From assembly GCF_054482595.1 (NCBI RefSeq), contig NZ_CM137008.1: a stretch of 64,000 nucleotides of DNA; one strand, 5' to 3'. Position 1 is the first letter of the stretch. Every line of letters begins with the position of its first letter. Made by a program: the position numbers and the translations under genes. This document shows positions 39,065 to 64,000 of the stretch, in pieces. Under the pieces are notes generated by a model that searched no databases, was not told the origin of the DNA, and saw only the letters and a program-made list of their open reading frames with translations.

Positions 39065-39259
39065 TTACAGCAACTGGTGAGGGCTGGCATAAGTTGCCGG
39101 TGTTTCGGTAGAGTCACGGTCATCCACCACGCGGAGTGAATAACCGTTTTCAGCGGCCTTATTAATCAGTTCAGTGATATTAACACCATCAATGTCAACG
39201 ACAATGTGCCCCATATCCAGCGCCTGTACGTTAACGCTGTCGGCTTCCAGTGTCATCAT
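39065..39259 (-). CDS. yeeW: YeeW-like small protein
   Basis: 64 aa; start ATG overlaps the cbtA-frame stop (ATGA); last gene of the CP4-44-type backbone. Confidence 0.55.
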   Translation of the reverse strand: MMTLEADSVNVQALDMGHIVVDIDGVNITELINKAAENGYSLRVVDDRDSTETPATYASPHQLL

Positions 39260-39629
39260 TTCGCCTCCGGATACTTACCCAGGGTAATGTTATTTACCGT
39301 TCTGTAATTGTCGCGGGTCATCAGGCCGGTCGCCCTGCGAGCCCGGAGGATATCGATGCTGTTTATTAACTGAGAGCGGGTACAGGCGCTGAATCCCGGC
39401 TGGTCGGTAGCACCAGCGCGTATTTTTCCACGAGAAAGTTCACCGCATCACACAGTGAAATGCCTGCCTCAATATGCTGCTCAATCACACGTTCATCGGC
39501 AAAAGGTGTGTCATTCTGTGTGAGGCCATAGTGCTGGTCCAGCAGTCGGGACAGCAGTATCTGCCAGATTTCAACAGGAGACGGGCGAGAACTGGCCGCC
39601 TGCCCGGGTAATACAGGTAATGTTTTCAT
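39256..39629 (-). pseudogene. cbtA: CbtA (YeeV) cytoskeleton-binding type IV toxin, disrupted by a -1 frameshift
   Basis: N-terminus [36 protein letters not shown]...FLVEKYALV reads for 73 codons and stops at codon 88 (39366). The next frame encodes [50 protein letters not shown] with no stops, ending in the ATGA overlap with yeeW; consistent with a 1-bp deletion near 39409-39411. Confidence 0.75.
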
Positions 39630-44841: not shown

Positions 44842-45743
44842 GCAGCCCCCTTCTGAAATATTTCATCGACCATACTTTCAGAGAGGCGTTCTGCAGAGCA
44901 GAGGCGAGGCATGCGAACCGGTAAGTGTTCTGCAGCCTGCGTGGTTGACCAGATCACCGGATGCTGCTCTTCACTGCACCAGTCTCCCAGCCAGTTAATC
45001 GCGTCATGCCACTCGTTATCTGCCTGCTCCCGGCCCTGACCACCAAGCCAGTCCAGAGTGTTCAGACGCACGGTTGCACTACCGCCACTCTCCTGTGCCA
45101 TCTGCGTTAATGCTTTATGTCTGAGAATATCCAGTAGCTGGTTAACCTGGCCTGTTTCGCCCTGACGTATCACATCACCAAACGCGCCCCAGCGAAGCTC
45201 TTCAAGTGCCACATAACAACGTCCGGCAGGGGAAAATGACGCATATCGCCCGGCGCTCCACCATGAGAATATCTGCTCAAGATGTAACTGCGCCCGCTGA
45301 ACCTGGTCAACACGGTGGAGTTTTTCTTCAAGATGATTCAGTTTATGGTGAACCTGATCGGCCAGGGTGAGTAACTGCTCCCGCGTATCTGCGGAATAAT
45401 GCGCCAGCCTGGCTGTATCACTGACCAGTGAACTGACCCTGTCGTTTACCCGGGTAATCGCGTAGTTTGTGGTGGCAAGTGACGTTGTCATCTCCGTCAG
45501 CCAGCGCAGGGACGCCTCAACGCCCTGTGCAAGCGACGCATTGATGGCATTCTGCCGTGCAGCGCCTTCGCCGGTCAGCCCCTCTTTTAAACGCCGGAAG
45601 AACGTGCGCTCTCCGGCCGTGCGGATATGCTCCTGTGCAACATCGATTCCGTTTGCGAAATCAACCACAAATTTTTCAGGAAGACAGGTGAGTACCTGAC
45701 ATACCCGGTTATCAGCAATTTGTTGAATAAATGGTGAAGTCAC
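44838..45743 (-). CDS. Helical/coiled-coil protein of unknown function, translationally coupled partner of the dynamin-like GTPase
   Basis: 301 aa, no nucleotide-binding motif; ATGA overlaps at both ends (45740-45743 and 44838-44841). Confidence 0.6.
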   Translation of the reverse strand: MTSPFIQQIADNRVCQVLTCLPEKFVVDFANGIDVAQEHIRTAGERTFFRRLKEGLTGEGAARQNAINASLAQGVEASLRWLTEMTTSLATTNYAITRVNDRVSSLVSDTARLAHYSADTREQLLTLADQVHHKLNHLEEKLHRVDQVQRAQLHLEQIFSWWSAGRYASFSPAGRCYVALEELRWGAFGDVIRQGETGQVNQLLDILRHKALTQMAQESGGSATVRLNTLDWLGGQGREQADNEWHDAINWLGDWCSEEQHPVIWSTTQAAEHLPVRMPRLCSAERLSESMVDEIFQKGAA

Positions 45744-48136: not shown

Positions 48137-48193
48137 TATTTAACCTTCCTAAGACGCATTTTCATGACAACCACGGAGGAGGTCATTCACTAC

Positions 48194-48236
48194 AAACGAT
48201 CGTTTATAACGATCGATATGATAGTAACGATCGATG
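48194..48236. promoter_or_regulatory. Cluster of three GATC-containing AACGATCG boxes upstream of the dynamin operon (candidate Dam/OxyR phase-variation switch)
   Basis: aaacgatcgttt-ataacgatcgat-atgatagtaacgatcgatg; GATC at 48198, 48211 and 48229, 60-100 bp upstream of the dynamin start codon, in the slot corresponding to the yeeP-flu intergenic region. Confidence 0.4.
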
Positions 48237-48353
48237 TATTCTATTAACTTGAGAAACACAACGCAAGGGGACAACCCGGGTATGGCTGCGTTTGCATAGT
48301 GTTTTCATGGAGTTAAAAATCTGTAACAACAGCCTGGTACATCACCACCGGGT

Positions 48354-49226
48354 TCAGAAGAAAATCCAGTTCCATACCGCGCGGGCAACAGAGACCACCG
48401 AGTCACGGACGGCGCGCAGAACCGTGCGTGCAACAGAGGCAATGCAGACGCTCTCCGCCGTGTCAAATATCCGGTCCACCGCACCGGTAAACTGTTCACG
48501 GGCCTGAGACCGGACAGACTCCGTGCGCAGCTCGTCCTGCAGGCGGGTCATCAGGGGACTGGCGGCATGGTCGGGAAGTGCTGTCATGAGCGCACTGACC
48601 AGCGTATCCAGTTCCCAGCCGGTGCGGGCCGATACGGCAACAACCCGATGTACGGGCCGGAACAGACGGAATACCGCCTCCGTTTTTTCGCGAATGTTCT
48701 GTGCCTGTGCGGGAGAAGGCTGAATACCGGCCATATCCCATTCATGGCAGGGCTCCGTTTTATCGGCCTGCATCACCACAAACAGTACCCGCTGATGTCC
48801 CCGGTGCAGGATGTGTCGCCAGAAATACTCATCCACAGACAGGGCACGGTCATCGGCTTTAATCAGCCACAGTACCAGGTCCAGTTCGGGCAGAATGTCA
48901 CGGTACAGGGCTTCATACTCTGCATCCCTGTCCCGGCTCTCGCCCACCCCGGGCAGGTCAGTGATAACCATGCTGTGACCATGGCCATTCAGACGGAAGC
49001 GCTGCACTTCCCGGGTGCCGGCGTGAACATCACTGACCGGGGTGACCTCCCCCTGAAACAGCGCATTACAGAGTGAGGATTTACCGGCCCCGCTTTTCCC
49101 CATAATGCCAATCACGGGTTCGTGACTGGTGAGTTTGCGCAGATGTTCCAGGATGTGACGGGAAAGTGAGTAAGGCAGGGAGGAGAGCGGTTTTTCGATT
49201 GCCTCAATGGCATCAGACGGATTCAT
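48354..49226 (-). CDS. yeeP: YeeP/YfjP/YkfA-family small GTPase (island backbone)
   Basis: P-loop GIMGKSGAGKSSLCNAL, G3 ITDLPGVGE, G4 VMQADKTE; start set at MNPSDAIEAIEK (GGGAA Shine-Dalgarno), about 290 aa. Confidence 0.7.
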   Translation of the reverse strand: MNPSDAIEAIEKPLSSLPYSLSRHILEHLRKLTSHEPVIGIMGKSGAGKSSLCNALFQGEVTPVSDVHAGTREVQRFRLNGHGHSMVITDLPGVGESRDRDAEYEALYRDILPELDLVLWLIKADDRALSVDEYFWRHILHRGHQRVLFVVMQADKTEPCHEWDMAGIQPSPAQAQNIREKTEAVFRLFRPVHRVVAVSARTGWELDTLVSALMTALPDHAASPLMTRLQDELRTESVRSQAREQFTGAVDRIFDTAESVCIASVARTVLRAVRDSVVSVARAVWNWIFF

Positions 49227-49309
49227 ACATGTATTCCCGGTGAAAAAAGACAAAACCCCGCGCACCGGAAAGGTGGCGGGGGATTCACGGAAATAATATC
49301 TGTCTGAAA

Positions 49310-50473
49310 TTATCTGGAATCGATTTGGCTGTTCTGCCTGGTTGCCACCAAATCATGGTACGCCTGCTCAATCATTTCATTCAGCAGTTTTTTTGGGAGG
49401 ACACCACGACTTCGGGCAATACTTTCAAGCTGTTTGTGGATTTTTCCGGACAGTTTCAGAGGGACGGAACCATCAGCACGTTCATCACGCCTTTTTTGTT
49501 GCTCCCGGGCACTTTTCAGCTCATCAAGAAGAATCGCTTTATGCTGAATCCTGGGGGCCTGGAAGGAGACCTGCGTAAACTTCGCTCTGTTCCGTCTGGG
49601 ATTACTTTCCAGTAAAAACTGTACCTGTTGCTCATTCCAGCCCTCCCAGTTATCAAACGTGGCGCAGGCAAACCAGTATTTCTGCTCCGGGGTAAGGGGA
49701 TTCAGCGGGGTTCCCACACACCGGACCTGCATGGCGTTCCATAACCAGTCACACTGTTCACTGTCCCTGCTGTCCACCCACGAAAAGGGGGAGGGGTAAT
49801 CATTGTTTATGCTGGCCCATTCAGAGAATACTGAGTTGATAATCGTCCTCGTAGCCTCTGGTCCGGATTTCAGCAGGTAACTGGAGCAGAACCATATAAT
49901 TTCACGGTAGATTTTATCCGGATGCACGGTGCGCATCGGCTTTTCTCTGGGACCGGCAATCTTCGGTTGCGATGGAAACCCCGTGGCAAACCGCAGATGT
50001 TCCGGGGGCATTCCTGAACGTTTTTCAGGAATGGGTGTGAGTCCTGCGTTTCTGGTCTTTTCCGCTTGTCCGGTATTGCCTCCGGCCGGAGTGTTGTCGG
50101 GAGTATCTTCCGGAGGCGAGGTGTTTTCATTAGTTGGGGGAACAACAGCAGAACTGTCCATCTCCGGAATGGGTTGAGGGGCATAATCACTGTGGTAGCC
50201 AGGGGAAAGCGTTAAGTCCCGAAGGGTGACATCAGGTTCCGGGCAGTGAGTGCCACCGGGAGTGAACGGGAGTTGTTGCTTTTGGGAGAAAAATGTATTG
50301 TGAATGCGGGTATACAGCTGGAACAGAAAAAAATAAGATGCCCGTGGTTCTTTTTTTAACCACTGTGTATATTCCTCTATGGCACCGAGCTGTTGTTTGT
50401 GCCGTTTTACAGCATCGATATACGGACAGCTGGTGCAGATATCATCCAGTTCCTTTCCCACAATACACCTCAC
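49310..50473 (-). CDS. Hypothetical protein (Pro/Thr-rich linker; basic C-terminal helical region)
   Basis: 387-aa ORF with no recognisable family; no canonical ATG near the 5' end (the listed start is GTG), so the start is uncertain. Confidence 0.35.
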   Translation of the reverse strand: MRCIVGKELDDICTSCPYIDAVKRHKQQLGAIEEYTQWLKKEPRASYFFLFQLYTRIHNTFFSQKQQLPFTPGGTHCPEPDVTLRDLTLSPGYHSDYAPQPIPEMDSSAVVPPTNENTSPPEDTPDNTPAGGNTGQAEKTRNAGLTPIPEKRSGMPPEHLRFATGFPSQPKIAGPREKPMRTVHPDKIYREIIWFCSSYLLKSGPEATRTIINSVFSEWASINNDYPSPFSWVDSRDSEQCDWLWNAMQVRCVGTPLNPLTPEQKYWFACATFDNWEGWNEQQVQFLLESNPRRNRAKFTQVSFQAPRIQHKAILLDELKSAREQQKRRDERADGSVPLKLSGKIHKQLESIARSRGVLPKKLLNEMIEQAYHDLVATRQNSQIDSR

Positions 50474-51993
50474 CTGCTTTTCTCACATTTGCAGATTTTA
50501 AAAAAGCAAACAAAAACCTCCGTACATGATGTACAGAACAATCTACCAGGTAGTGGCGTCAGAAAACCTCCGGGCCGCCTGCACTTTCCGGAATGCGCCG
50601 GTTATGAAAAACCGGAAATTCAGTCTCTGTTGTAAGATGTACCCTCTGATACTACGTTTTCTCTGTGTATTTAACTCACTGTATTTATTGTCTTTTTAAG
50701 CTTGACTAATATTCTCCGGTCATAGTGTGCCGGATACACATCCCGTAAACTTCTCATTTTTATATAAAAATACCTGCACTCTCTTCAGCGCATCTGTCTC
50801 CTTTAAGTAAAAAATGTTTTTACGTATTGCTGTAAATTCATTTTAAATCAGTATATTACCTTGATATTGCTGTCTCCTGGTTTGATGCGTAATCGTTCTG
50901 CCTTTCTGGATGATTCTGGTGCTTCCGGGTGCATTCTCCTCTGCACATGCAACAGTTCGTCATCGCCACGCTCCCAAAAAGCATATAAAAACGAATCGAA
51001 TTTGATATTTTTTTCAATCGTTTTTCATAGGAATTTCGTAGGGTATTCTCCGCTATAACCTCCATATTTGCTGTCTTTTTCTTCATAAATCGTATGCAAT
51101 GTAGCCTGTCTGTCAAGACCTCTTCTCTGCTGTTGAGGAGACGATCTCATTTTTGGTCTTTTCCGGGAGAGAGGCTGTCAGATGAGCGAGCCGGATATAC
51201 TGTCAGAGGTACACCCCGTAGCAGACCTGTGCTCCCATTTCCGCGATCCGGAACCAACAACACCCTACGGTTAATACCATTTGAAGCGTCAGGTACTGCA
51301 GGAAGTTCCCCCCTGCGCGGACATCGGTTCCTGCCGACATCTCACAATACGGCCAGACTGTCATGCAGTAACACCCGCATGCGGTCTGCGGTTTTAAGCG
51401 CACTCTCCCGTTTTCAGTGCATCGATAATGCGTCATAGTAAGTCTGGGGGAAGTTACGGAATGCCTGTTAAGTGGTGCCGTGGGTGGAGACAGCTTACTT
51501 TTCTACAGCAACTGCAGTCATTCAGGATGATCAGGAGATATTCTGTCAATGTCACGATCCTGCCATTTTCGTACCCGCTAAGATACTTCCGTTACTGATG
51601 CTGTCCGCTTTTCACCATTTCATCCTCACTGACAGGCGTTGCGTTTTGGGTCATCACCACAGCTTTACGTTTCTCTTTTAACCGGTAACGCTCTCCTTTG
51701 ATATTCAGCGTGGTTGAGTGATGCAGCAGTCAATCCAGGAGCGCTGTTGTCCGGCAACCACCATATCAACTTCTTCCCGGGTGTGGCGGAGAGGTGGTAT
51801 CCTGGCTGAGTTTCGAAGCGAACCGTTCTTTTTGACGGGCGCATTTTACGTCCGGGCTGAATGTAGTAACGCGGCATGGAACGTCGGCCCGTATACCATT
51901 GCCTTAATCTCCGCAAAGATAACCTCGTCATTCCGGACATTCTCTGCCAGGCATATGTCGATGTAATCCATAAACGATTTCAGCTTACCCCTT

Positions 51994-53951
<1,958 letters not shown>

Positions 53952-54813
53952 TTTGTGGCCAGTCTTTCTGGCTGGCGGTTCAGGGGATGTTTTCTGGTTA
54001 TCGTGTACCACAAAGCAGGGATATTGCCCCGATAGTCACATTTCAGATTGATCGCGGTCTGAAGATGTGGCACTGAGGTAACGTGCTGGTGTCACTGGTA
54101 TTGCTGAAGTTATGGTTTTTCGGGGTCAGGTGAGCCTGTTGTGTGTATGCTTTTTGTTCAGGTCAGAGGGGGACTGTGTGGACAGCGGCTTTTGTCTCCG
54201 GGCATTCACGCCTGAACGATGAATGCGATTTTCAGCAATATTTGTCTTTGTGACACTCTCTGGTTGAGAAGCTAATGCGCGCCCCTGTTTCCACAGAGAA
54301 TGAGGCTTGCCATCAGCCGAAACATCAGTATTCCACGCCATACAGACGGCGCCTGACCATGTGCTGATGCAGGTAAAATGTTTCACTACAACTGTTCGGG
54401 TTGCTATGCAACGAAACAGCGATTCTCACGATCTTTAACTGCAACGTTTTTCCGCCTGAAAGCTGACTGCCTCCTGCTGAGGTGGGAGGCTATGATTCAG
54501 TGCGTTTATAGTCTCCGGGGTATGCATGTACCGGAGCATACCATTTCTGGTGGATAACAAGCCGGCACATTCAGACTGCAGTGAAGATGGAGGCACCTGG
54601 TTGTGAAGAACGTTTCTGCCCGTGGCTGCTTCGCATCATCAATGGTATTCATACCCGCTCAGAAATGACCGGGTGCTGAAGCCCTCCGTTATCGCGCAGT
54701 ATAATGACGTATATGATCTGTGGACGAGTGAGCGGCGTGCCTGATGTACGCCGCTATTACTGTATTTTACCACAGGGCTGGTTTTCTGCTGCCAGCCCTG
54801 TGGTTCTCAGACA

Positions 54814-55416
54814 TCAACTGTGAGCGGCATCAACCGATGTACGGTATGCCATAAGCACGTACTGATCCATCAGATTTGTCAGTGGTTCACTCTGACCCTG
54901 ACGTGCAATGATCCATTGCTCCAGATCTTTTTCTGATTTGTGTTTCAGGTTTTTCGTCCAGTCGTCAAGGCTGTTTCCGGTCATTAAGTCAAGCCAGCAG
55001 AGCCAGACCAGTTTGAGACGTAACTCCGTGCCGCCAAACTGACGGAAGAGGCTGATCAGTTTGTTTGCCAGAGAATGTTGCTTCAGGCGCTCACATTCAG
55101 ACAGCAGGATCCCTTCCAGCATCGGATGATGAACCAGCAGGTGTTCGCTGGTGCATAAATTCACCACCAGATCATCATCCAGGGACGGGGAGCTCCGTTT
55201 GTCCGGACCATAAATCAGCCGGTGCAGACTCTGGGGAACGATGGCAATCTCCGGTTTTTCGCCATTGAATGACACCCACCCGGGCGTCAGATTATGGAAA
55301 TAGTAGATATTCGGATGACACACGCCCCATGATACGGCGTGCCGGGTGAAGCCGGTCAGCCATTTCTGGTAGTTTTCATGGAGCAGCTCGTAACGGGTCT
55401 GATACTGTTGTTTCAT
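54814..55416 (-). CDS. Hypothetical protein
   Basis: ORF 54814..55431; likely start MKQQYQTRYELL with GAGGAA Shine-Dalgarno; no family recognised. Confidence 0.35.
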   Translation of the reverse strand: MKQQYQTRYELLHENYQKWLTGFTRHAVSWGVCHPNIYYFHNLTPGWVSFNGEKPEIAIVPQSLHRLIYGPDKRSSPSLDDDLVVNLCTSEHLLVHHPMLEGILLSECERLKQHSLANKLISLFRQFGGTELRLKLVWLCWLDLMTGNSLDDWTKNLKHKSEKDLEQWIIARQGQSEPLTNLMDQYVLMAYRTSVDAAHS

Positions 55417-55509
55417 TTTCATATTCCTCACGGGGGATAACAGGCAGCAGAGCGCCGCCGGCAGGCCGGAGATTGCGTCTGCTGTGGGCGAAGGGTTAGT
55501 GGTTAAAAA

Positions 55510-55716
55510 TTACAGACGGGACTGTGCAATACGCGCCTGCAGCCAGGCTTCCACTTCACTTTTCAGCCAGCGGGAGCTGCGCCCCATTTTGATGGGCGCA
55601 GGAAAGCCCCCATCTTTGATGAGTTTGTCAAACCACTTATCGGTAAGGCCGGTCAGTTGAGTGATAAACGCCATGTCGACCATCTGGTCATCCATCAGCG
55701 AAACTGGGGTAGCCAT
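55510..55716 (-). CDS. alpA: AlpA-family phage/island transcriptional regulator (HTH)
   Basis: 68 aa from MATPVSLMDDQMVDMAFITQLTGLTDKWFDKLIKDGGFPAPIKMGRSSRWLKSEVEAWL, the AlpA signature; the longer ORF to 55920 is an upstream extension through a poly-C tract. Confidence 0.6.
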   Translation of the reverse strand: MATPVSLMDDQMVDMAFITQLTGLTDKWFDKLIKDGGFPAPIKMGRSSRWLKSEVEAWLQARIAQSRL

Positions 55717-55880
55717 GAGAATGTTCCTCCGGATGTTGTTAAACCAGCCGGTGTGGTCATGAAAACAGCGCGCCACCTTCACCGGCATAACAACCGGGGA
55801 GAAACGTAAAAAATAATCGGGAATGTGGCTGTCCGGAGATAAACGGGGGGATTGCGATGGCAGAGCCGTAGCGGAATCCC

Positions 55881-55894
55881 GGGGGGGGGGGGGG
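55881..55894. repeat. Homopolymeric G tract, 14 nt (C14 on the minus strand)
   Basis: cccgggggggggggggggttgcg at 55878-55900, about 165 bp upstream of the alpA-like start. Confidence 0.9.
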
Positions 55895-56845
55895 TTGCGA
55901 AAAGATGCTTCCGCACGCACGCGCGATAAAGAGGGGATAGTTTTCGTGAGGACAGGGAGAGAAGCAGGCGTTCTGATAATTGCAGAGTTGTTTTCGGAGG
56001 TGGTTACAGTGAGTCAGCCCGTTCCTGGCGAGCAGGAGACTGATATCACCGATGGGATAAGGTTGTCTGATTGGTATTATAAATATAAGAAGTCATCAGA
56101 GAGTAACGTAAAGGATTTGCCAGAATAACCTAAGAGAGTAAATCTCTCCGGTAACAGAGCGCTGTGAAGCATTCTGTATTAGAGTGCAGATACATGAACG
56201 CTGATGCGTAAAATCAGCAGTGACACGCCAGCTCCCCCTATGCCCATTCCTGTATAAGACATGAACTGAGTGTATTAATGCTTCTGCCCTGAGACTGAGC
56301 CGGTGAGTGAGGGGCTGAGAAATCCCTCTTGACACAGCTCTAACCAGAAATACTTCCCCGGTTGTTGCGGTGCGTCCGGATCCCCGATAACGGAACACTA
56401 AGGCTGTATTGCGGGACACCGGGTAAGTAGCAGCCCGTAAGGCGTTCTGTCAACGCCAGAAAAAATGATTTCCCACACGCGTTATAGACTCACTCCTGTG
56501 GACCTGGAAGCCCGTAACTCTGCGGTTGCCCACTGACTGACGGAACTGACCGCAAATTTTACGAGTGCGTGCTGGGCTTCAGTCTGGTCACCTGAGCGTT
56601 CGGTAACGGAGGCGCGGGCGGTAATAGGCTGATTTTCAGGTATTACCGGCTTACAGCGTGTGGTTGATATTGAGGGGCTGTGAGTTTCGCGTATTTGTCA
56701 GAAACCCAGACGAGTTTTCCTGTATGGGACGAAATAAGGCAGCGGCAATACCTGGAAAAATTTAATATGGTATGAAGGAGAACCTGTCGGTTACGCTTAA
56801 TATACCCGGTACACTGTCAGCTCAGGGGATACATGAACCGTTATC

Positions 56846-57049
56846 TCACCAGCTACACAGTATATACACACTGACGCTGACAGTAGTCAGCAGGACCACA
56901 ATAATCAGTGCCAGCAGTATGGTAACGATACGGTCTGTATTCCGGTAATAGCCGAAGGGGTCGACAGAACCACAATACGGGCAACACACTGTATTATGAG
57001 TAATCGCGTTTCCACAGTCCCTGCACTTCTTTTTGCGTATCACCATCAC
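56846..57049 (-). CDS. Small zinc-ribbon membrane protein (hypothetical)
   Basis: 67 aa; CRDCGN...CCPYCGS zinc-ribbon pair then one TM helix (IVTILLALIIVVLLTTVSVSVYIL); GGAGG Shine-Dalgarno 6-7 nt upstream of the ATG. Confidence 0.3.
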   Translation of the reverse strand: MMVIRKKKCRDCGNAITHNTVCCPYCGSVDPFGYYRNTDRIVTILLALIIVVLLTTVSVSVYILCSW

Positions 57050-57245
57050 TCCCTCCTCACAGCCTTACCCGTAACCGGTTTTTTACATTAAAAAAACAAC
57101 GCTGAAAATTCAACCGTCAGTCCGGAGACGACCGTTCGGGTTATCACAGAGTGCCTGAGACAGTGTCCTGCCGGAGGTCACTTCAGGGACTCTGCGCATT
57201 TTTTACGACGTGGCTATTCCGTATGAACCATACGGAGATTTAACC

Positions 57246-57815
57246 ATGACCTACAAATACAACCCCTTCTGGCAGCAACGTATTCGTGAGACGGTGCGGC
57301 ACGCACTGAATGTTCATCCCCGCCTGACGGCATTGCGGGTTGACCTGCGTTTCCCGGATGTACCGGCAGCAACGGACGCAGCTGTGATATCCCGCTTCAT
57401 CAATGCCCTGAAAGCCCGAATCGACGCTTACCAGAAACGTAAGCATCGGGAAGGTAAACGCGTGCATCCCACAACCCTGCATTACGTCTGGGCCCGGGAG
57501 TTTGGGGAGTGCAAAGGTAAAAAACACTATCACCTGATGCTGCTGGTTAACCGGGATACCTGGTGTCGTGCCGGTGATTACCGTGCTCCGGGATCACTGG
57601 CCGGGATGATTAAACAGGCGTGGTGCAGTGCCCTGGGAGTGGATGTCGGGTGCCATGCCACGCTGGTGCATTTCCCGGCCTGGCCGGCGGTGTGGCTGGA
57701 ACGCGATGATGACACTGGCTTTCAGCAGGTGCTGGAACGTGCTGACTATCTGGCGAAGGAACATACCAAAGCTCACTGCACCGGTGAGCGCAATTTTGGC
57801 TGTAGCCGGAGTTGA
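57246..57815 (+). CDS. YagK/YfjJ-family protein (inovirus Gp2-like domain)
   Basis: 190 aa from MTYKYNPFWQQRIRETVRHALNVHPRLTALRVDLRFPD; GGAG Shine-Dalgarno 8 nt upstream; family assigned from memory. Confidence 0.5.
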   Translation: MTYKYNPFWQQRIRETVRHALNVHPRLTALRVDLRFPDVPAATDAAVISRFINALKARIDAYQKRKHREGKRVHPTTLHYVWAREFGECKGKKHYHLMLLVNRDTWCRAGDYRAPGSLAGMIKQAWCSALGVDVGCHATLVHFPAWPAVWLERDDDTGFQQVLERADYLAKEHTKAHCTGERNFGCSRS

Positions 57816-58074
57816 GCACGACTGGCGCGCCAATACCCGGCAAACCAAAAGTATGGGTTGTTGTCTGGCGGCAACGATGTATCCACTCGCCCACTGACTG
57901 TTTTTTACGTCAGTGTTCCATTGTGTGACAACCACAGTGCTGTAACAGCAACCAGCCTGCTTTACCCAAACTCCAGTCCAGATTTTAACTGAACCGCCAT
58001 TCACACCCTGACCACGCTGCCCGTACCGGGACGGCTGTTGCCTGCGTGTCGTCTGGCGGCTGAGGAATATGACT

Positions 58075-58476
58075 ATGTACGCAAAATCCTTTATCGCTCT
58101 TGATGGCAACGGACGTCTGACGGGCGCCCGTACTGCACAGGCCGCACCTTATGCTAACTACACCTGCCACTTGTGTGGCAGTGCACTCAGATACCATCCG
58201 CAATACGACACTGAACTTCCCTGGTTTGAACACACTGACGACAGGCTGACAGAGCACGGTCAACAGTGCCCTTATGTCAGGCCGGAGCGCAGAGAAATAC
58301 AGTTGATTAAACGTCTGCAGCAATTCGTACCGGATGCCTTACCCGTGGTGCGTAAAGCCAGCTGGCACTGCAGACAATGTCACCACGATTATTATGGGGA
58401 GCGGTACTGCACACACTGCCAGACCGGAGGATTCAGTATTCCCCGGACAACTCAGGAGGAAATATGCGAATTCTGA
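58075..58476 (+). CDS. Zinc-ribbon protein, paralog 1 (hypothetical)
   Basis: CHLCGS...PWFEH...CRQCHH...CTHCQTG; two CxxC pairs and a shared PWFEH motif. Confidence 0.4.
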   Translation: MYAKSFIALDGNGRLTGARTAQAAPYANYTCHLCGSALRYHPQYDTELPWFEHTDDRLTEHGQQCPYVRPERREIQLIKRLQQFVPDALPVVRKASWHCRQCHHDYYGERYCTHCQTGGFSIPRTTQEEICEF

Positions 58477-58871
58477 ACTGTTATATGGCGAATGACAGCA
58501 AAGGCCATTTTGTTACGGCGAAAGAAGCAGCGAAGCACAACCGCCAGGACGTTTTGTGCTGTGTGTCCTGTGGATGCCCGTTAACACTTCAGCGGGGCAA
58601 TGACGGACAACCACCGTGGTTTGAACATGACCAGATGACTGTCGCTGAGAAAATCCTGCTGCGATGCACCTGGCTTGACCCGGCAGAGAAAGAGGCCCGT
58701 CGTTTGCATCTGCAGGGTATGACGGTTCCGGATTATACGGTGAAGGTGAGAAAGTGGTTTTGTGTGATGTGTGACGAAAATTATGAGGGGGAAAAGTGCT
58801 GCCCGAGTTGTGGTACCGGGGTATACAGCAGGGAGGGGGGGCAGGAGGGCAACTGGAAGGATAGGAACTGA
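58464..58871 (+). CDS. Zinc-ribbon protein, paralog 2 (hypothetical)
   Basis: From MRILNCYMAND; CVSCGC...PPWFEH...CVMCDE...CPSCGTG; same motif architecture as the upstream gene; 13-nt overlap. Confidence 0.4.
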   Translation: MRILNCYMANDSKGHFVTAKEAAKHNRQDVLCCVSCGCPLTLQRGNDGQPPWFEHDQMTVAEKILLRCTWLDPAEKEARRLHLQGMTVPDYTVKVRKWFCVMCDENYEGEKCCPSCGTGVYSREGGQEGNWKDRN

Positions 58872-59154
58872 GCGGTTCAGTCGCGGAAATCAGTTGCAGA
58901 GCTGTAATGATATCTCCGGGAGTGCTGCGTTGGTAGGGGCATCCCGGGATAGAGAAATTTTAGCACTTTGCCCTGAATGATTGTAGACGTCCCGAGTACT
59001 CGTACCGGTCTGAGTTATTACAGTTAGATATTCACTTTTTCTCCCGCATACTTCACATCTGTCAACGACGGATGAAAAGTGGTTCTTCCGCAACCTGGGT
59101 GGAAGAAAATGGATGAAACTTTCTGGCGAACAAGGATCTAAGCTGTTTTAAGTT

Positions 59155-60774
59155 ATGGGCAACGCAATGCACTCTCTTAAGACACTTCTACAGTTACCTT
59201 GCGGATGGCGATGCAGTCGACAAATTATTAGCTCTGACGGTATAACCCTCCATCTCCACGGAAAACGCAAAACAGCACAATGTCCTGAATGCTTTAAGCG
59301 TAGCGACTCTGTTCATAGTTGTCGTCGGCGCCGGATACAGCATCTACCCTGCTCAGGGCAGACGCTATGGCTTGTATTTTCCGTCCGCCACTGGTACTGC
59401 CGTAACCCGGCTTGTTCACGTAAAATTTTTGCCGAGTCGCTTGCTCCCTTCGCCAGTTCACACCAGCAGTCTTCACAGGCGTTACAAAATTAACAACGTC
59501 AACTGGGATTAATAGCTGGAGGTGAGGCTGGAAAACGGGCTGCAACGGCAGTGGGTCTCCGTTGCAGTGCTGATACTCTTCTTCGCAGGCTTATCAATAC
59601 CCCGGAGACGAAACAGTCAGGCGCGCCTCATGTCGGTATTGATGAGTGGGCGTGGCATCGGGGCCACTGCTGCGGTATGTTAATAGTCAATCCTGATACT
59701 CACCGTCCCCTCGTCCTGCTTCCCGGCCGTGATCAGCGTACGCTGGCGACCTGGTTCAGAAAATATCCGGAAATACAGGTTGTCTCGCGTGATCGCAGTG
59801 GAGTCTATGCGACAGCAGCACGTGAAGGTGCACCTCAGGCCAGACAGGTGGCCGATCGATGGCACCTGCTAAAAAATATTGGTGATGAGCCTGAACGAAT
59901 GATGTACAGACATATGCCTCTGATACGTCTTGTTGTCAGAGAGTTATCACTGAAGAAATCACCTGAGCCAGAAATATCTGTGCCTGTAGCATCGCTCCGT
60001 CGTCTGGAACGCCTTAAACAGCACATCCGCAAAAAACGGCATCAGCGTTGGACAGAGGTTATGGCCCTGCATAACAAGGGATGTAGTTTCAGGGAAATAT
60101 CCCGTATTACAGGCCTGTCGCGAGTGACAGTCAGTCGCTGGGTGGGTTCAGGAACATTCCCTGAAATGTCAACCAGGCCTCCAAAGCGAGGGCTTCTGGA
60201 CCCATGGAGGGAGTGGTTAAAAGAGCAACGAGAATGTGGTAATTATAACTCCGGCCGGATATGGCGGGAAATGGTGGCCAGGGGGGTTACAGGCAGTGAA
60301 ACCATCGTCAGGGATGCTGTTGCCAAATGGCATAAAGGCTGGATCCCACCGGTTACTACTGCCGCAAGACTTCCTTCAGTGTCACGGGTAAGCCGCTGGT
60401 TGATGCCCTGGAGAATAATCAGGGGTGAAGAAAATTATGCTTTCCGATTTATTAGTCTGATGTGTGAAAAAGAACCGGAGTTGAAAATAGCGCAGCAACT
60501 GGTACTCGAGTTCTACCGTATTCTGAAAACCTAAAATAAATCACAGCTAAGCAGCTGGTTCACTCGGGTCCACGAAAGCGGCTCAGCAGAACTTCGGTGC
60601 GTAGCTGCGGGGATGGAAGCTGATGCTGCGGCTATATGTGAGGCAATCAGCAGTCGCTGGAGTACTGGTGTTGTCGAAGGTCATGTAAATCGCCTGAAGG
60701 TGCTGATACGCCAGATGTATGGTCGAGCCGGACTTGAACTACTTAGGCGGAGGGTAATGAGTCCACTGGCATGA
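59155..60774 (+). pseudogene. ISL3-family transposase, degenerate (split over three reading frames)
   Basis: Fragment 1 (59155-59493) zinc-finger N-terminus (CPECFKR...RRIQHLPCSGQ...RHWYCRNPACSRKIFAE); fragment 2 (59551-60534) DDE region (VGIDEWAWHRGHCCGML...VVSRDRSGVYA...ADRWHLLKN); fragment 3 (about 60540-60774) C-terminus (VVEGHVNRLKVLIRQMYGRAGLELLRRRVM). Confidence 0.5.
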
Positions 60775-60844
60775 AAATCTTCACCTAGGTTGAGGAAGAG
60801 CCACTTTTGCACTGTTCGTGACAGTATGGCCTTTATGTACTCAC

Positions 60845-61146
60845 TTTGTTACCGGTAGCTGGATCATCACTACCGTGCCGCAAATGGTGGTGAACAGCAT
60901 CAATTGTGGAATGAATGTTGCCGAAGCGACCAATGCGCCTCGTTTCCACCATCAGTGGTTGCCGGACGAGCTGCGTGTTGAAAAGGGTTTAGTCCGGATA
61001 CGCTCAAGCTGCTGGAAGCAAAAGGTCAGAAAGTGGCGCTGAATGAGGCGATGGGCAGCACGCAAAGCATTATGGTTGGGTCGGATGGTGAGTTGTACGG
61101 CGCATCCGACTCGCGCTTGGTGGATGATTTAACGGCGGGGTATTAA
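60845..61146 (+). pseudogene. ggt: Gamma-glutamyltranspeptidase 3' remnant with internal frameshift
   Basis: Encodes ...VTGSWIITTVPQMVVNSINCGMNVAEATNAPRFHHQWLPDELRVEKG, then after a 1-bp frame change FSPDTLKLLEAKGQKVALNEAMGSTQSIMVGSDGELYGASDSRLVDDLTAGY*; abuts the ISL3 remnant. Confidence 0.65.
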
Positions 61147-61153
61147 TTGACAT

Positions 61154-61176
61154 CCCCCGGCGCAATGTGCCGGGGG
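61154..61176. terminator. Bidirectional terminator-like hairpin between convergent genes
   Basis: cccccggc-gcaatgt-gccggggg, 8-bp GC stem. Confidence 0.4.
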
Positions 61177-61185
61177 ATAATGGTT

Positions 61186-62220
61186 TTATGCGGTCAATAA
61201 TCGTCCGGGATTATCGATACAGAGTTTTTTGAGGATCGTTTTATCGACGCCGCGCTCCGCCAGATAGGCCAGAAAAACATCTGGAACAAATCCCCAGCCA
61301 TTACCGCCATTTTTAGCCCACATTTGTTTAAGGAAGACATCGTGGCTGAGAACAAGCTGATCGGCGTATCCCAACTCAATGAGATGAGCGACGGCATCGG
61401 CAGTCTCCTGCACCCCTGGCGCTATTCCCTCTTTCGGGAAGGTAATGTCTAGGCCAATCATGTCGAATTCCAGCCAGACACCTTTATCAAGCATTTTCCG
61501 CTGATACGCCACGTCTTTTCCTGACGGATCCGAGTGTGCGAGAGAGACTTTATTTGGCGAGACGCCCATTTCACCTAACACAATGTCGAGTACTTCATCA
61601 CCGCGACGAAGCCAGCCCGGCATGTGAATATTCATCGCCACATGAGGATTGTTAATCTGTGCCAGCGAGGCAGCCCGCAAGCTGTTATGCTCGGCTTCGG
61701 TAAATGTCGGTGAGACACCTATTTCACCGATCATTCCGGCACGAATATCCGTATCGCCAATCCCTTGATTCAATTCTTTATCGATCGTTGTCGCTAGTTC
61801 ATCAACCGTTTTATGAATTCTCTGGCTTTCAAATTTTTCCAGGTAGGGACCGGAGGAAGCAACAATATTCAGACCTGTTTTTAATGCGACTTCTCGTAAT
61901 GCCTGCGCATCTCGTCCGATAGACTCAGACCCTGTGGCATCAACAATGGTGCGACCACCGAGCGAGATAAAGTTATTAATTTCGAAGATCACATCTTCAA
62001 TAGGTTTGCGGTCCATATTATCAGCGCAGCAATAAGGATCGTGTTTTAATGCCCACTGGATTTCTGCCGTGACTTTTTTATCAACAAGCCGTTGTGAAAA
62101 AGGATAGCAAGGAGCATCCACAACAGAGGAAAGATCGTTGAACAGATGTTCATGAGGAAGTGTTAGCCCCATATCTTCACGGGCGACGGGGCCCGTCACA
62201 GTTTGTAGATAATCTTTCAT
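61186..62220 (-). CDS. Phosphotriesterase-family (PTE/Php-like amidohydrolase) protein
   Basis: 344 aa; N-terminal metal-binding HxH (GLTLPHEHLF) and TIM-barrel hydrolase layout. Confidence 0.6.
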   Translation of the reverse strand: MKDYLQTVTGPVAREDMGLTLPHEHLFNDLSSVVDAPCYPFSQRLVDKKVTAEIQWALKHDPYCCADNMDRKPIEDVIFEINNFISLGGRTIVDATGSESIGRDAQALREVALKTGLNIVASSGPYLEKFESQRIHKTVDELATTIDKELNQGIGDTDIRAGMIGEIGVSPTFTEAEHNSLRAASLAQINNPHVAMNIHMPGWLRRGDEVLDIVLGEMGVSPNKVSLAHSDPSGKDVAYQRKMLDKGVWLEFDMIGLDITFPKEGIAPGVQETADAVAHLIELGYADQLVLSHDVFLKQMWAKNGGNGWGFVPDVFLAYLAERGVDKTILKKLCIDNPGRLLTA

Positions 62221-62222
62221 GA

Positions 62223-63188
62223 TTATACCTCCATTTTCTTCATTGTTTTCGAGGCTCTGTATTCCGGAATAGTGGTAACAATTGCACCGACCAGTGCAAA
62301 CAGTGTTCCGATGATCGTGACCAGATAAACGGTATTGCCCAGCGATGGAATTAATACGTCAATCAATACTGATCCCAGTAACTGGCCCGCCGTTGAAGCA
62401 ACCCCCAGCATCAGTAACCCAAGACCTCTGACCAAAATGGCCATTAAACCGATAGACATTAGTCCAAGCGGGCCGCCAAGATACATCCACCAGACATCTG
62501 GTAATTGAACAGTGACGTGCCCTAATGCGACACGAATAGCTAGCGCTGTGCCTAAAACACAAAATCCAACGATGAAATTCCAGGTGATTGAAACCAGCAT
62601 GGATCCCGTAGCTTCAGCTACTTTTGCATTTCCAGCGGGCTGCCATCCTGCAAGCAAACCAGCTAAGAACGGAAGAATGGCAAGTAAAATGAAAGAGGTA
62701 GAATGCCACTGCGGTGACACAACAAAAATCGTAGCAATAACCGCAAATAATGCACCGATGATGCGATAAGGGGTAAAGTATTTTTTCTCGTCGACACCGA
62801 TACCAAAGCGATCGCAAAGTAAACCAGACAGCAATAGCGCGGAGATCAGTGCGGTCTGAAACGTTGCGACCCCGAGTGCGCTGGCTGATGCGCCTTCAGA
62901 AAATACCACCATCGCTCCACAGAGACCGGCAAACCAGTTCCAGAGAGGAACTTTTCGGTTTTTAATCAGAGAAGGAATTGCCGCAAATTGTTGCCGGGTT
63001 TCTTTTCGCGCCATAATAATAAAAAACATCACGACTAAACCACTGGCAAAGGAGATAACTGCGCATGCATTACCGTCCTGTAACCAGTGACCTAATTGAC
63101 CATTCACCGCTGATTGCATAGGGGAGAGCATACCCGCAAGAATCGTGGCAAGCATCCATAAGGGAGTTGAGTACTTATTCTTTTTCAT
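62223..63188 (-). CDS. Polytopic inner-membrane protein (putative transporter)
   Basis: 321 aa, about 10 hydrophobic segments, internally duplicated appearance; 2-bp gap to the upstream gene. Confidence 0.5.
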   Translation of the reverse strand: MKKNKYSTPLWMLATILAGMLSPMQSAVNGQLGHWLQDGNACAVISFASGLVVMFFIIMARKETRQQFAAIPSLIKNRKVPLWNWFAGLCGAMVVFSEGASASALGVATFQTALISALLLSGLLCDRFGIGVDEKKYFTPYRIIGALFAVIATIFVVSPQWHSTSFILLAILPFLAGLLAGWQPAGNAKVAEATGSMLVSITWNFIVGFCVLGTALAIRVALGHVTVQLPDVWWMYLGGPLGLMSIGLMAILVRGLGLLMLGVASTAGQLLGSVLIDVLIPSLGNTVYLVTIIGTLFALVGAIVTTIPEYRASKTMKKMEV

Positions 63189-63244
63189 ACATCAATCCTT
63201 CTATTATAGTAAATGGAGTAACTGGTGTTACCCCATTATTATTA

Positions 63245-63976
63245 TTATCTTGCAATATGAGTCAGTATATTTACCCACAACGCGGTATAGAACGGCCAGG
63301 ACATAAACTGCTGTGTACCCCAGTGCGGTGAACAGTCACTCATAAAGCAGGCTATTTTCCCGTTGTGATAGTTACCAAAGACCAGTAATGGATCGTTGTT
63401 TATTGTTAATACCACCTCAGCATTTTCTTTAGCGATCGCCCGGTTATAACCTAGGAAAAAAGGATATTCAGAGAACCCTTTAATAACCGGATGGTCAGGT
63501 TGTGATGGCTGTGCAATAACCCCCTCTGGTTTTTCGACACGATCGTCACCATCTAACATCGTAACCGGGAGCACATCAGCCAGAACTGTATTTTTATAAT
63601 TGGCTTTTGCTTCAATTCCCATGAATGAGAGATAGCCGCCAATCATCAATAACCCACCACCGTTATTCACATATTCTTTAATCAGTTCGAGAGCGTTTGG
63701 TTTTATGCGAAGCTGATAAAAAGTATCATTTTGTAGCAGGAAAGTATTACTACCAATATCACTAATAACGATGGCATCATATTGTTCTAACTGTGCCACA
63801 TCTTCAGGGAAGGCAATTTGTACCGTATGTGCCGGCATATAGGTGACATCTACCTGACTATTTTTCAGACATTGGAGTAACCAGGTCGCACCTTCTTCAT
63901 ATTTACTTGAGGTAAAACTGTCATATCCTTTTGAATGAATCATATGAATATGCCAGGATTCTCCAATAAAGAGCAC
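63245..63976 (-). CDS. Hypothetical protein, possible class-I glutamine-amidotransferase-like fold
   Basis: 243-aa ORF with YDAIVISD...GGGLLMIGG; frame is open to the window end, so the true start may be GTG 63976, ATG 63943 or beyond the window. Confidence 0.35.
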   Translation of the reverse strand: MLFIGESWHIHMIHSKGYDSFTSSKYEEGATWLLQCLKNSQVDVTYMPAHTVQIAFPEDVAQLEQYDAIVISDIGSNTFLLQNDTFYQLRIKPNALELIKEYVNNGGGLLMIGGYLSFMGIEAKANYKNTVLADVLPVTMLDGDDRVEKPEGVIAQPSQPDHPVIKGFSEYPFFLGYNRAIAKENAEVVLTINNDPLLVFGNYHNGKIACFMSDCSPHWGTQQFMSWPFYTALWVNILTHIAR

Positions 63977-64000
63977 CTTTAGTGATTTTTTGGTGTTATT

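What the first reader, a model, noticed from the sequence alone, without database searches (positions are those of the whole stretch)
58075..58871. Tandem paralogous double zinc-ribbon proteins sharing a PWFEH motif
Seen in sequence: two adjacent, slightly overlapping genes (134 and 135 aa) each with CxxC...PWFEH...CxxC...CxxC architecture but otherwise diverged; the first has a tandem Shine-Dalgarno/ATG start. Inference: a duplicated nucleic-acid- or protein-binding module of the island with no function I can assign, possibly a regulator or anti-defence pair.
Basis: partly seen in the sequence, partly recalled or inferred. Interest (0 to 1): 0.4.

Follow-up and report, generated by a model that had tools for sequence, protein, structure and literature searches.

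The report
Paired zinc-ribbon genes of island core
Two adjacent, related zinc-binding genes in an E. coli genomic island belong to catalogued but unstudied protein families, always sit beside the island's replication-type nickase and excision-regulator genes, and probably work with that nickase.

Summary
Two overlapping genes, ZnR1 (58075-58476, 133 aa) and ZnR2 (58464-58871, 135 aa), are paralogs (31% identity, E 3e-15). Both match Pfam DUF7828 plus Zn_ribbon_11 far above threshold and are under purifying selection (dN/dS 0.17-0.36).

They are not new sequences. Both genes are annotated in identical RefSeq genome stretches, and the pair matches 3818 of 5426 complete E. coli genomes. The family occurs only in Enterobacterales, and I found no paper on it.

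Thirty-six diverse members show one CxxC...(W)FEH...C site (C2HC, weakly CoiA_N-like) and one CxxC-x9-CxxC ribbon. No solved structure resembles the whole protein.

In all 12 lineages examined, the genes follow a YagK/YfjJ ("inovirus Gp2") HUH-type gene on the same strand. AlpA is in the module wherever enough sequence is held. In Serratia the zinc-ribbon protein is fused to a catalytically degenerate Gp2-like domain, and this fusion is conserved (six proteins, 45-52% identical).

Best reading: zinc-dependent partner subunits of the island's Gp2-like nickase, within the AlpA-linked mobility module. This is inferred, not shown.

An 88-nt non-coding element just upstream of ZnR1 is better conserved than the genes around it. 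Anti-defence has no support, and a regulator role remains possible.

The parts
58075..58476 (+). ZnR1, 133 aa, annotated 'putative zinc ribbon protein' (WP_000270974.1). DUF7828 at aa 2-87 plus Zn_ribbon_11 at aa 94-126. Predicted ligands C31, C34, H53, C65 and C99, C102, C112, C115.
   Evidence: ORF and translation. Pfam hits (numbered there on the 135-aa form from ATG 58069). RefSeq annotation of the identical sequence. Start supported by homologue N-termini. dN/dS 0.19-0.22.
58464..58871 (+). ZnR2, 135 aa, annotated 'zinc-ribbon domain-containing protein' (WP_001221623.1). DUF7828 at aa 4-89 plus Zn_ribbon_11 at aa 93-125. Predicted ligands C33, C36, H55, C68 and C100, C103, C113, C116.
   Evidence: AF2 model with mean pLDDT 89.2. 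Invariant columns. dN/dS 0.17-0.36.
58454..58476 (+). Coupling junction: AGGAGG (58454-58459), ZnR2 ATG (58464) and ZnR1 TGA (58474-58476), giving a 13-nt overlap.
   Evidence: Sequence. The same 13-nt overlap occurs in the Klebsiella plasmid pair and a 17-nt overlap in L017. L014 has a 51-nt gap instead.
58062..58077 (+). GAGGA Shine-Dalgarno (58062-58066), a non-conserved in-frame ATG at 58069, and the true ZnR1 start ATG at 58075.
57987..58074 (+). Conserved 88-nt non-coding element directly upstream of ZnR1, with core GCTGCCCGTACCGGGACGGCTG at 58016-58037 (imperfect hairpin). Candidate DNA site or 5' leader; function not established.
   Evidence: It is 92.8%, 94.2% and 98.9% identical to L021, L017 and L004, where the flanking genes are 66-73%, 67-83% and 92-95% identical. 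Alignment. One copy per locus. No RNA covariation support and no Rfam hit.
57246..57815 (+). YagK/YfjJ-type 'inovirus Gp2 family' protein (189 aa; the longest ORF starts at 57210). Carries HYH (HUH-like) and YLAK motifs.
   Evidence: Pfam YagK_YfjJ_C E 1e-47 and REP_ORF2-G2P E 5e-5. Motif conservation across 9 upstream paralogs. Annotation.
55510..55716 (-). AlpA-family helix-turn-helix gene of the same island module. In this E. coli lineage it is transcribed divergently from the Gp2-ZnR1-ZnR2 unit.
   Evidence: tblastn with AlpA proteins of five other lineages gives 65-82% identity, E 4e-26 to 1.5e-35. Annotation of the identical record.
54814..55431 (-). Uncharacterised protein of about 200 aa ('p199' family) next to AlpA. 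Its homologues sit immediately upstream of ZnR genes in L019 and between AlpA and Gp2 in L017.
   Evidence: No Pfam hit for its homologues.
56846..57049 (-). Small ORF (67 aa) with CxxC...CxxC followed by a hydrophobic tail, divergent from Gp2. Whether it belongs to the module is uncertain.
   Evidence: ORF. Annotated as WP_001297900.1. Conserved at 58% identity in L004. Only a sub-threshold zf-ChsH2 hit.

Best explanation
ZnR1 and ZnR2 are two anciently duplicated, zinc-binding core proteins of a family of tyrosine-integrase genomic islands of Enterobacterales. Here the island occupies the CP4-44 chromosomal position.

**Anatomy.** Each protein has an N-terminal C2HC zinc knuckle carrying the (W)FEH motif (Pfam DUF7828, remotely like the N-terminal zinc finger of CoiA). 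A helix and a flexible linker follow, then a CxxC-x9-CxxC zinc ribbon (Pfam Zn_ribbon_11).

**Proposed role.** The two genes are probably transcribed with the island's YagK/YfjJ ('inovirus Gp2'-like) gene. That gene keeps the HUH and Tyr motifs of rolling-circle initiators and nickases. ZnR1 and ZnR2 are probably translationally coupled. I propose they act as non-catalytic partner subunits of this Gp2-like protein, most likely as a ZnR1-ZnR2 pair. Their job would be to tether or target the Gp2-like protein to its DNA site or to a host factor, when the AlpA-linked mobility module is switched on around excision.

**Shown here:** gene reality, family membership, metal-ligand conservation, strict synteny and the fusion.

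**Inferred:** physical interaction with Gp2, DNA-site targeting, and a role in island replication or mobilisation.
For: 1. **Family and fold.** Pfam DUF7828 plus Zn_ribbon_11 score far above threshold. Eight ligand positions are invariant or nearly so in 36 diverse members. The AF2 model is confident, with two separate zinc modules.
2. **Selection.** dN/dS is 0.17-0.36.
3. **Synteny.** In all 12 lineages examined, from E. coli, Klebsiella plasmids, Enterobacter, Proteus, Providencia, Serratia, Yersinia, Pectobacterium and unnamed metagenomic sources, the ZnR gene or genes lie on the same strand within about 1.3 kb downstream of, or adjacent to, a Gp2-like gene. AlpA is in the module wherever enough sequence is held. 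In E. coli, 3080 genomes carry at least 80% of the Gp2-ZnR1-ZnR2 segment, against 2987 with the complete pair.
4. **Fusion.** Six Serratia-lineage proteins of 454-468 aa, 45-52% identical to each other, join DUF7828-Zn_ribbon_11 to a full-length YagK/YfjJ-like domain. That domain matches the neighbouring Gp2 gene at E 7e-24.
5. **Degenerate partners.** Upstream Gp2 genes keep HxH and YLxK. The fused Gp2 domain has lost both motifs, and so has the separate Gp2-like gene just downstream of the ZnR pair in the Klebsiella plasmid (L021). A second upstream copy in L022 is partly degenerate. This fits a structural partner rather than a second enzyme.
7. **CoiA_N similarity.** It is reproducible but sub-threshold: 11 of 36 members, best E 7e-5, plus structural hits of the N-domain to viral proteins, including one named 'Competence protein'. 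In CoiA this zinc finger precedes a nuclease required for resolving D-loops in transformation (bioRxiv 10.1101/2024.02.06.579203).
8. **Candidate cis site.** An 88-nt non-coding element just upstream of ZnR1 is better conserved than the genes.
Against: - No interaction, DNA-binding or zinc data exist, and I could not run a multimer prediction.
- The proteins are near neutral (median pI 7.6, window proteins 6.9 and 7.1), which does not look like a typical DNA binder.
- Synteny with AlpA fits a regulatory role equally well.
- The fused Gp2-like domains are catalytically degenerate, so the fusion links ZnR to the Gp2 fold, not directly to nicking activity.
- The function of YagK/YfjJ proteins is itself untested. 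Their HUH assignment rests on motifs and sub-threshold Rep hits.
- Proteus and Providencia islands carry a single ZnR gene, so a heterodimer is not obligatory.
- In this window AlpA is not co-transcribed with the ZnR genes.
Confidence: 0.45

Rival explanations
1. ZnR1 and ZnR2 are small zinc-finger transcription factors, or RNA-polymerase-binding regulators, of island genes. They would act with or downstream of AlpA, in the manner of P2 Ogr and P4 Delta (Delta being a tandem duplication of an Ogr-like unit).
For: - In most lineages the genes lie immediately downstream of AlpA on the same strand.
- They are small proteins with two zinc modules.
- The conserved 88-nt element upstream of ZnR1 could be an operator or promoter.
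- The profile weakly hits RPB9, an RNA-polymerase subunit with two zinc ribbons (E 0.004). One member hits Pfam Zn_ribbon_RPB9 at E 4e-4.
- They sit at the border of the variable cargo region.
Against: - No Ogr_Delta or other transcription-factor family appears among the Pfam matches, even at E up to 1.
- The RPB9 hit is driven by cysteine spacing, and the fold searches do not return RPB9.
- A regulator model does not explain the conserved fusion to a Gp2-like domain or the Gp2-like paralogs flanking the genes.
- No sigma-70-like promoter was found in the conserved element.
Confidence: 0.25
2. The pair is an anti-defence (anti-restriction or anti-CRISPR-like) or defence-associated module of the island.
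For: - Small island-borne proteins of unknown function.
- The island backbone carries an antirestriction gene and DUF932.
- Defence systems lie just downstream in some lineages, for example KwaA and a type I restriction subunit in L026.
Against: - No homologue in 50,697 phage records.
- No significant PADLOC or PHROG match.
- The genes lie in the Gp2/AlpA unit, divergent from the antirestriction-DUF932-RadC operon.
- They are conserved core genes, whereas the neighbouring defence cargo varies between lineages.
- They are not acidic DNA mimics.
Confidence: 0.05
3. The proteins help the integrase/AlpA excision reaction itself, as a recombination directionality or architectural cofactor, rather than any Gp2-dependent step.
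For: - Constant linkage to AlpA, whose relatives act as excision factors or activators in related islands (my own knowledge: Rox, Hef, Vef; AlpA and CP4-57).
- In many lineages the genes lie on the same strand directly after AlpA, consistent with co-transcription.
Against: - The integrase lies several kb away (about 4-7 kb in L008 and L011), across the variable cargo.
- The pair persists in E. coli islands that have lost their integrase side. No integrase is annotated in this island in the window region, yet dN/dS stays low.
- The only domain fusion found is to Gp2, not to an integrase or Xis-type domain.
Confidence: 0.12
4. The ORFs are decaying remnants without present function in this degraded island.
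For: - The island in the window is broken up by IS100 and an ISL3 pseudogene.
- Many truncated, frameshifted or chimeric copies exist in E. coli databases.
- About 22% of E. coli genomes with a match hold only partial copies.
Against: - Both window ORFs are intact and identical to proteins annotated in several E. coli genomes.
- dN/dS is well below 1.
- All ligand residues are kept.
Confidence: 0.08

Closest known systems
Pfam DUF7828 (PF25165) plus Zn_ribbon_11 (PF11682, formerly DUF3279); RefSeq 'putative zinc ribbon protein' and 'zinc-ribbon domain-containing protein'
   Same: Both window proteins are full-length members (107.5 and 106.1 bits against a cut-off of 25.7; 38.0 and 64.4 bits against 24). 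The genes are annotated in identical RefSeq genome stretches.
   Different: Nothing differs. These families are the finding itself. They carry no functional annotation, and no paper in the searchable library mentions them.
N-terminal zinc finger of competence protein CoiA (Pfam CoiA_N, PF25164), and DUF7830
   Same: The layout CxxC ... aromatic-x-His ... is shared. Sub-threshold but repeated HMM hits occur in 11 of 36 and 9 of 36 members (best E 7e-5 and 1e-3). The N-domain also matches a viral 'Competence protein' structurally. In CoiA the finger sits next to a DNA-processing nuclease.
   Different: ZnR proteins have no PD-(D/E)XK nuclease domain and no CoiA C-terminal region. They add a second CxxC-x9-CxxC ribbon. 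The hits stay below Pfam's threshold, and the associated enzyme is HUH-type, not PD-(D/E)XK.
P2 Ogr / P4 Delta zinc-finger late-gene activators (my own knowledge)
   Same: Small zinc-binding proteins of mobile elements. Delta is a tandem duplication of the Ogr unit, which echoes the tandem ZnR pair. P4-type elements also use AlpA-like regulators.
   Different: No sequence-family match. ZnR proteins have two different metal sites per chain, are not found in phages, and are fused to Gp2-like domains in Serratia.
HUH enzymes with a built-in zinc-binding domain, such as IS91-family and Helitron transposases (my own knowledge)
   Same: A zinc module combined with an HUH/Tyr nickase. The Serratia fusion places the zinc modules N-terminal to a Gp2-like fold, in the same order.
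   Different: In the window the zinc modules are separate proteins. The fused Gp2 domain has lost the HUH and Tyr motifs. No homology to those families was tested or found.
E. coli YfgJ-type 'double zinc ribbon' (Pfam Zn_ribbon_6, PF07191)
   Same: The C-terminal ribbon gives sub-threshold hits in 20 of 36 members (best E 2e-5). Both are small proteins with two metal sites.
   Different: Below threshold for the window proteins (17.8 and 16.2 bits against 25). The N-terminal C2HC/FEH domain is unrelated, and YfgJ is not an island gene (my own knowledge).

Membership tests
Pfam DUF7828 (PF25165) | HMM score above the gathering threshold (25.7 bits) over the full 87-position model | tested here: met
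   ZnR1 scores 107.5 bits (model 1-87) and ZnR2 106.1 bits (model 2-86). All 36 diverse members match.
Pfam Zn_ribbon_11 (PF11682) | HMM score above the gathering threshold (24 bits); CxxC-x9-CxxC ribbon | tested here: met
   38.0 and 64.4 bits. C100, C103, C113 and C116 are invariant or nearly so. The model shows a beta-ribbon at 97-124.
Zinc-binding protein (two sites per chain) | Bound Zn(II) with Cys/His ligands | not testable with these tools
CoiA competence nuclease family | CoiA_N zinc finger scoring above threshold (26.3 bits) | tested here: not met
   14.3 bits, E 0.03 for ZnR2 and no hit for ZnR1. The best family member reaches E 7e-5.
CoiA competence nuclease family | Central PD-(D/E)XK nuclease domain | tested here: not met
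   The proteins are 133-135 aa and fully covered by DUF7828 plus Zn_ribbon_11. No nuclease family was hit.
Ogr/Delta zinc-finger activators | Match to the Ogr_Delta family model | tested here: not met
   No such family among the Pfam matches at E up to 1 for the window proteins, nor among the families listed for the 36 members at E up to 0.1 (the 25 most frequent of 41 are shown).
RPB9/TFIIS-type RNA-polymerase zinc-ribbon proteins | Significant sequence and fold similarity to RPB9 or the TFIIS C-terminal ribbon | tested here: inconclusive
Accessory subunit of a HUH (Gp2/YagK-YfjJ) nickase - a proposed functional class, not a curated family | Conserved genomic linkage and domain fusion with the enzyme | tested here: met
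   12 of 12 lineages are linked. The fusion is conserved in six Serratia-lineage proteins.
Accessory subunit of a HUH (Gp2/YagK-YfjJ) nickase - a proposed functional class, not a curated family | Physical complex with the enzyme and an effect on its nicking or replication activity | not testable with these tools
No experimental data were found.
Known anti-phage defence system components (PADLOC-DB) | Significant match to a PADLOC model | tested here: not met
   Best hit is PDC-S64 at E 0.035 and 11 bits.

The most novel reading that the evidence does not exclude
The Gp2-like HUH protein, the ZnR1/ZnR2 zinc proteins and the conserved 88-nt element upstream of ZnR1 could together form an undescribed nicking or rolling-circle replication and mobilisation apparatus. 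It would belong to the very common CP4-44/CP4-57-type integrative islands of Enterobacterales, with the ZnR pair as the site-recognition or loading subunits. This would give these supposedly 'cryptic' islands an active post-excision life cycle.
Probability: 0.2. Interest if true: 0.7.

Novelty: already known. Interest (0 to 1): 0.4.

Why it matters
- **Scale.** The pair matches about 70% of complete E. coli genomes, often in several copies. It lies in the core of an island family that carries virulence, resistance and defence cargo.
- **Gap in knowledge.** Neither these proteins nor the adjacent YagK/YfjJ proteins have a tested function.
- **What the partnership would give.** If the zinc proteins are partners of a HUH nickase, that offers a concrete and easily tested handle on how these islands replicate or move after excision. 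It would also assign a role to two Pfam families that currently have none.
- **If not.** The result is simply a tidy annotation of two DUF genes.

Tried and rejected
1. **Wrong reference strain.** I first mapped the whole window onto strain BE2-5. This is wrong upstream of about 57000. AlpA and p199 hits exposed the error, and NZ_AP038225.1 is the colinear record for 44000-64000.
2. **Genome scan.** With the 36-sequence alignment the genome-contig scan failed. With the 6-sequence alignment it gave only two loci, from a contaminated MAG. I obtained context through the look-up of encoding contigs instead.
4. **PDB sequence searches.** Only chance-level or cysteine-spacing hits. The Gp2 profile gave only E 0.5 to parvovirus NS1 nuclease.
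5. **Other libraries.** NCBIfam, PHROGs and PADLOC gave nothing significant for the ZnR proteins.
6. **Structured RNA in the 88-nt element.** Rejected for lack of support. RNAalifold's covariation term is unfavourable, with one compensatory pair. The single-sequence z-score is -0.98, and Rfam has no hit.
7. **Iterons or inverted repeats around Gp2.** Only short two-copy matches of chance quality. Shared 9-mers in upstream regions across lineages are just A-runs.
8. **Promoter and terminator scan.** No more sites than in shuffled sequence.
9. **Literature.** Searches for the DUF names, the product names and the WP accessions found nothing functional.

Full report
**What is in the sequence.** On the + strand there are two ORFs. 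ZnR1 runs 58075-58476 (133 aa) and has a second in-frame ATG at 58069. ZnR2 runs 58464-58871 (135 aa). They overlap by 13 nt, and an AGGAGG at 58454-58459 lies inside the end of ZnR1. ZnR1 carries CHLC (31-34), PWFEH (49-53), C65, CRQC (99-102) and CTHC (112-115). ZnR2 carries CVSC (33-36), PWFEH (51-55), C68, CVMC (100-103) and CPSC (113-116).

First, there is one Shine-Dalgarno sequence (GAGGA, 58062-58066), which is well spaced only for the ATG at 58075. The ATG at 58069 is missing in other lineages, and homologues begin MYAKSF. So 58075 is the start, as RefSeq also annotates it. Second, the first metal site is best read as C2HC, as explained below.

**Real, related genes.** The two proteins align at 31% identity, E 3e-15. 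Both hit Pfam DUF7828 (E 3e-31 and 8e-31) and Zn_ribbon_11 (E 1e-9 and 7e-18), far above the curated thresholds. Against an E. coli O114 copy and a Klebsiella plasmid copy, dN/dS is 0.19-0.22 for ZnR1 and 0.17-0.36 for ZnR2, similar to the neighbouring Gp2-like gene at 0.11-0.29.

The DNA is 100% identical to many E. coli chromosomes. There the genes are annotated 'putative zinc ribbon protein' (WP_000270974.1) and 'zinc-ribbon domain-containing protein' (WP_001221623.1). The pair matches 3818 of 5426 complete E. coli genomes, with a median of two places per genome. These are therefore catalogued sequences, not new ones.

**The family.** An exhaustive profile search of 1.84 billion representative proteins found only 255 hits at E up to 0.001. 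Named members all come from Enterobacterales: Escherichia, Klebsiella, Enterobacter, Citrobacter, Proteus, Providencia, Serratia, Yersinia, Pectobacterium and Pantoea. No phage record holds a homologue. Only 32 of 72,556 plasmids do, mostly large Klebsiella plasmids.

The N-domain matches several predicted viral proteins at probability about 1.0 and E 0.01-0.06. It also matches one named 'Competence protein' at probability 0.85 and E 0.24. This agrees with repeated sub-threshold Pfam hits to CoiA_N in 11 of 36 members (best E 7e-5) and to DUF7830 in 9 of 36. [quoted passage not shown] A profile hit to RPB9 (E 0.004) spans both cysteine clusters but is not backed by the fold searches. I treat it as an effect of cysteine spacing.

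**Context in the window.** The island sits next to tmaR/yeeX, which is the CP4-44 chromosomal position (that placement is my own knowledge of K-12). According to the colinear record NZ_AP038225.1, the layout is as follows:
- A minus-strand block running, in gene order, GTPase, dynamin-RdcB-patatin, DUF932, antirestriction, radC, yeeT, cbeA, cbtA, yeeW.
- An IS100 insertion.
- p199 and AlpA on the minus strand (54814-55431 and 55510-55716).
- A small zinc-ribbon/membrane ORF.
- Gp2-like YagK/YfjJ (57246-57815), ZnR1 and ZnR2 on the plus strand.
- An ISL3 pseudogene and metabolic cargo.

My first mapping of the window onto strain BE2-5 is wrong upstream of about 57000 and should be disregarded for that part.

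**Context elsewhere.** I examined 12 lineages. In every one, the ZnR gene or genes lie on the same strand close to a Gp2-like gene. AlpA is in the module in every lineage that holds enough sequence. The commonest order is Gp2, AlpA, ZnR, sometimes a second ZnR, then variable cargo (arsenic resistance, KwaA plus type I restriction, SMC-like ATPases and others). In the lineages with enough flank (L008, L011-L013), the integrase lies beyond that cargo. On the other side a divergent operon encodes GTPase, WYL, antirestriction, DUF932, YfjT, RadC and CbeA.

Proteus and Providencia islands have a single ZnR gene. E. coli, Klebsiella, Enterobacter and others have a pair. In E. coli, 3080 genomes carry at least 80% of the 2.2-kb Gp2-ZnR1-ZnR2 segment, against 2987 with the complete pair.

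**The fusion.** P0190 (454 aa) consists of DUF7828 and Zn_ribbon_11 followed by about 310 residues. Those residues align end to end with the neighbouring 350-aa YagK/YfjJ protein at E 7e-24 and 21% identity. Five further proteins of 466-468 aa are 45-52% identical to it over their full length. Three are named Serratia fonticola or Serratia sp., and one lies in a 190-kb contig with the usual context. The fusion is thus a conserved architecture and not an assembly artefact.

In an alignment of 12 Gp2-like sequences, all nine 'upstream' copies keep HxH and Y-L-x-K. The fused domain has lost both motifs, as has the separate Gp2-like gene just downstream of the ZnR pair in the Klebsiella plasmid (L021). 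A second upstream copy in L022 is partly degenerate. So the zinc proteins are tied to the Gp2 fold, and the tied copy looks like a non-catalytic partner.

**Interpretation.** The best-supported reading is that ZnR1 and ZnR2 are zinc-dependent partner subunits of the island's Gp2-like HUH protein, within the AlpA-linked core module. They are probably made together, given the overlapping genes, and probably act as a pair.

I infer that they target or tether the Gp2-like protein to DNA or to another factor after excision is triggered. This follows from three observations: the fusion, the constant placement beside AlpA, and the CoiA-like finger, which in CoiA accompanies a DNA-processing enzyme.

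Nothing here demonstrates binding, zinc content or any effect on the island. The proteins are not basic (median pI 7.6). The function of YagK/YfjJ proteins is itself unknown, and papers only list them as core island genes, for example in Pseudomonas islands transduced by a jumbo phage (bioRxiv 10.1101/2024.08.29.610337).

I put 0.45 on the partnership model and 0.25 on a transcription-regulator role. Excision cofactor (0.12), decaying remnant (0.08) and anti-defence (0.05) share most of the rest.

**A conserved non-coding element.** The 88 nt just before ZnR1 (57987-58074; core GCTGCCCGTACCGGGACGGCTG at 58016-58037) are 92.8% identical to the Klebsiella plasmid locus, where Gp2, ZnR1 and ZnR2 are 69%, 73% and 66% identical. 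They are 94.2% identical to L017, where ZnR1 is 83% identical. They are 98.9% identical to L004, where ZnR1 is 92% identical.

**Novelty and score.** The proteins are already catalogued: two Pfam families, RefSeq annotation and presence in most E. coli. On the novelty scale the finding is therefore 'already known'. What is not in the literature I could search is any function, the strict linkage to Gp2-like genes, the conserved fusion, and the conserved upstream element. Interest is moderate (0.4). This is a very common unstudied gene pair for which a specific, cheap-to-test hypothesis now exists.

Noticed in passing
window 57987-58074 (core 58016-58037): An 88-nt non-coding element directly upstream of ZnR1 is more conserved across lineages than the flanking coding genes (93-99% against 66-95%). 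It contains an imperfect hairpin, GCTGCCCG-TAC-CGGGACGGC. There is no Rfam hit and no covariation support.
   Followed up: partly
window 56846-57049 (-): A 67-aa ORF with CRDC...CPYC followed by a hydrophobic tail, that is, a zinc ribbon plus a membrane anchor. It is annotated WP_001297900.1, diverges from the Gp2-like gene, and is conserved at 58% identity in a diverged E. coli island (L004).
   Followed up: partly
window 54814-55431 (-); L019 5458-5991 and 7537-8067; L017 2322-2921: An uncharacterised protein family of about 180-205 aa with no Pfam match ('p199') lies next to AlpA in the window. In L019 its homologues sit 9-10 nt upstream of each of two ZnR genes. It may be a further component of the same module.
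   Followed up: partly
L021 9493-10059; L022 7423-8586; P0190 residues 140-454; L020 87-569: A second class of Gp2/YagK-like paralogs has lost the HxH and Tyr-x-x-Lys motifs. These paralogs lie next to, or are fused to, ZnR genes. The L020 copy carries a precomputed Pfam label UCP030791 (PF27752).
   Followed up: partly
window 59155-60774 (+): An ISL3-family transposase pseudogene (internal stop) begins 284 nt after ZnR2. In other lineages the variable cargo begins at this position, with arsenic resistance, KwaA plus type I restriction, or SMC-like ATPases. The ZnR genes therefore mark the edge of the island's cargo hot spot.
   Followed up: partly
window 43771-48136 (-): Patatin-like phospholipase, RdcB-family and dynamin-family genes form a three-gene block inside the island backbone, next to a YeeP-like GTPase (48354-49265).
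   Followed up: no
window 52084-53885 (+): An IS100 element (istA/istB) is inserted between the GTPase side of the island and the AlpA/p199 genes, next to fragments of an AAA ATPase gene.
   Followed up: no
window about 39230-39605 (-), by annotation of the colinear record NZ_AP038225.1: The cbtA toxin gene of the island's CbtA/CbeA pair is annotated as frameshifted, while cbeA is intact. I did not check this in the window sequence itself.
   Followed up: no
proteins P0023, P0030, P0031, P0034, P0038-P0040, P0052: Database E. coli ZnR proteins include chimeras that join the N-terminal part of one paralog type to the C-terminal part of another. This suggests recombination between island copies within genomes.
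   Followed up: no
window 57859-57872 and 58047-58060: A 14-nt direct repeat, TGTYGTCTGGCGGC, brackets most of the Gp2-ZnR1 intergenic region, the position where other lineages carry alpA. It could be chance or a deletion scar.
   Followed up: no
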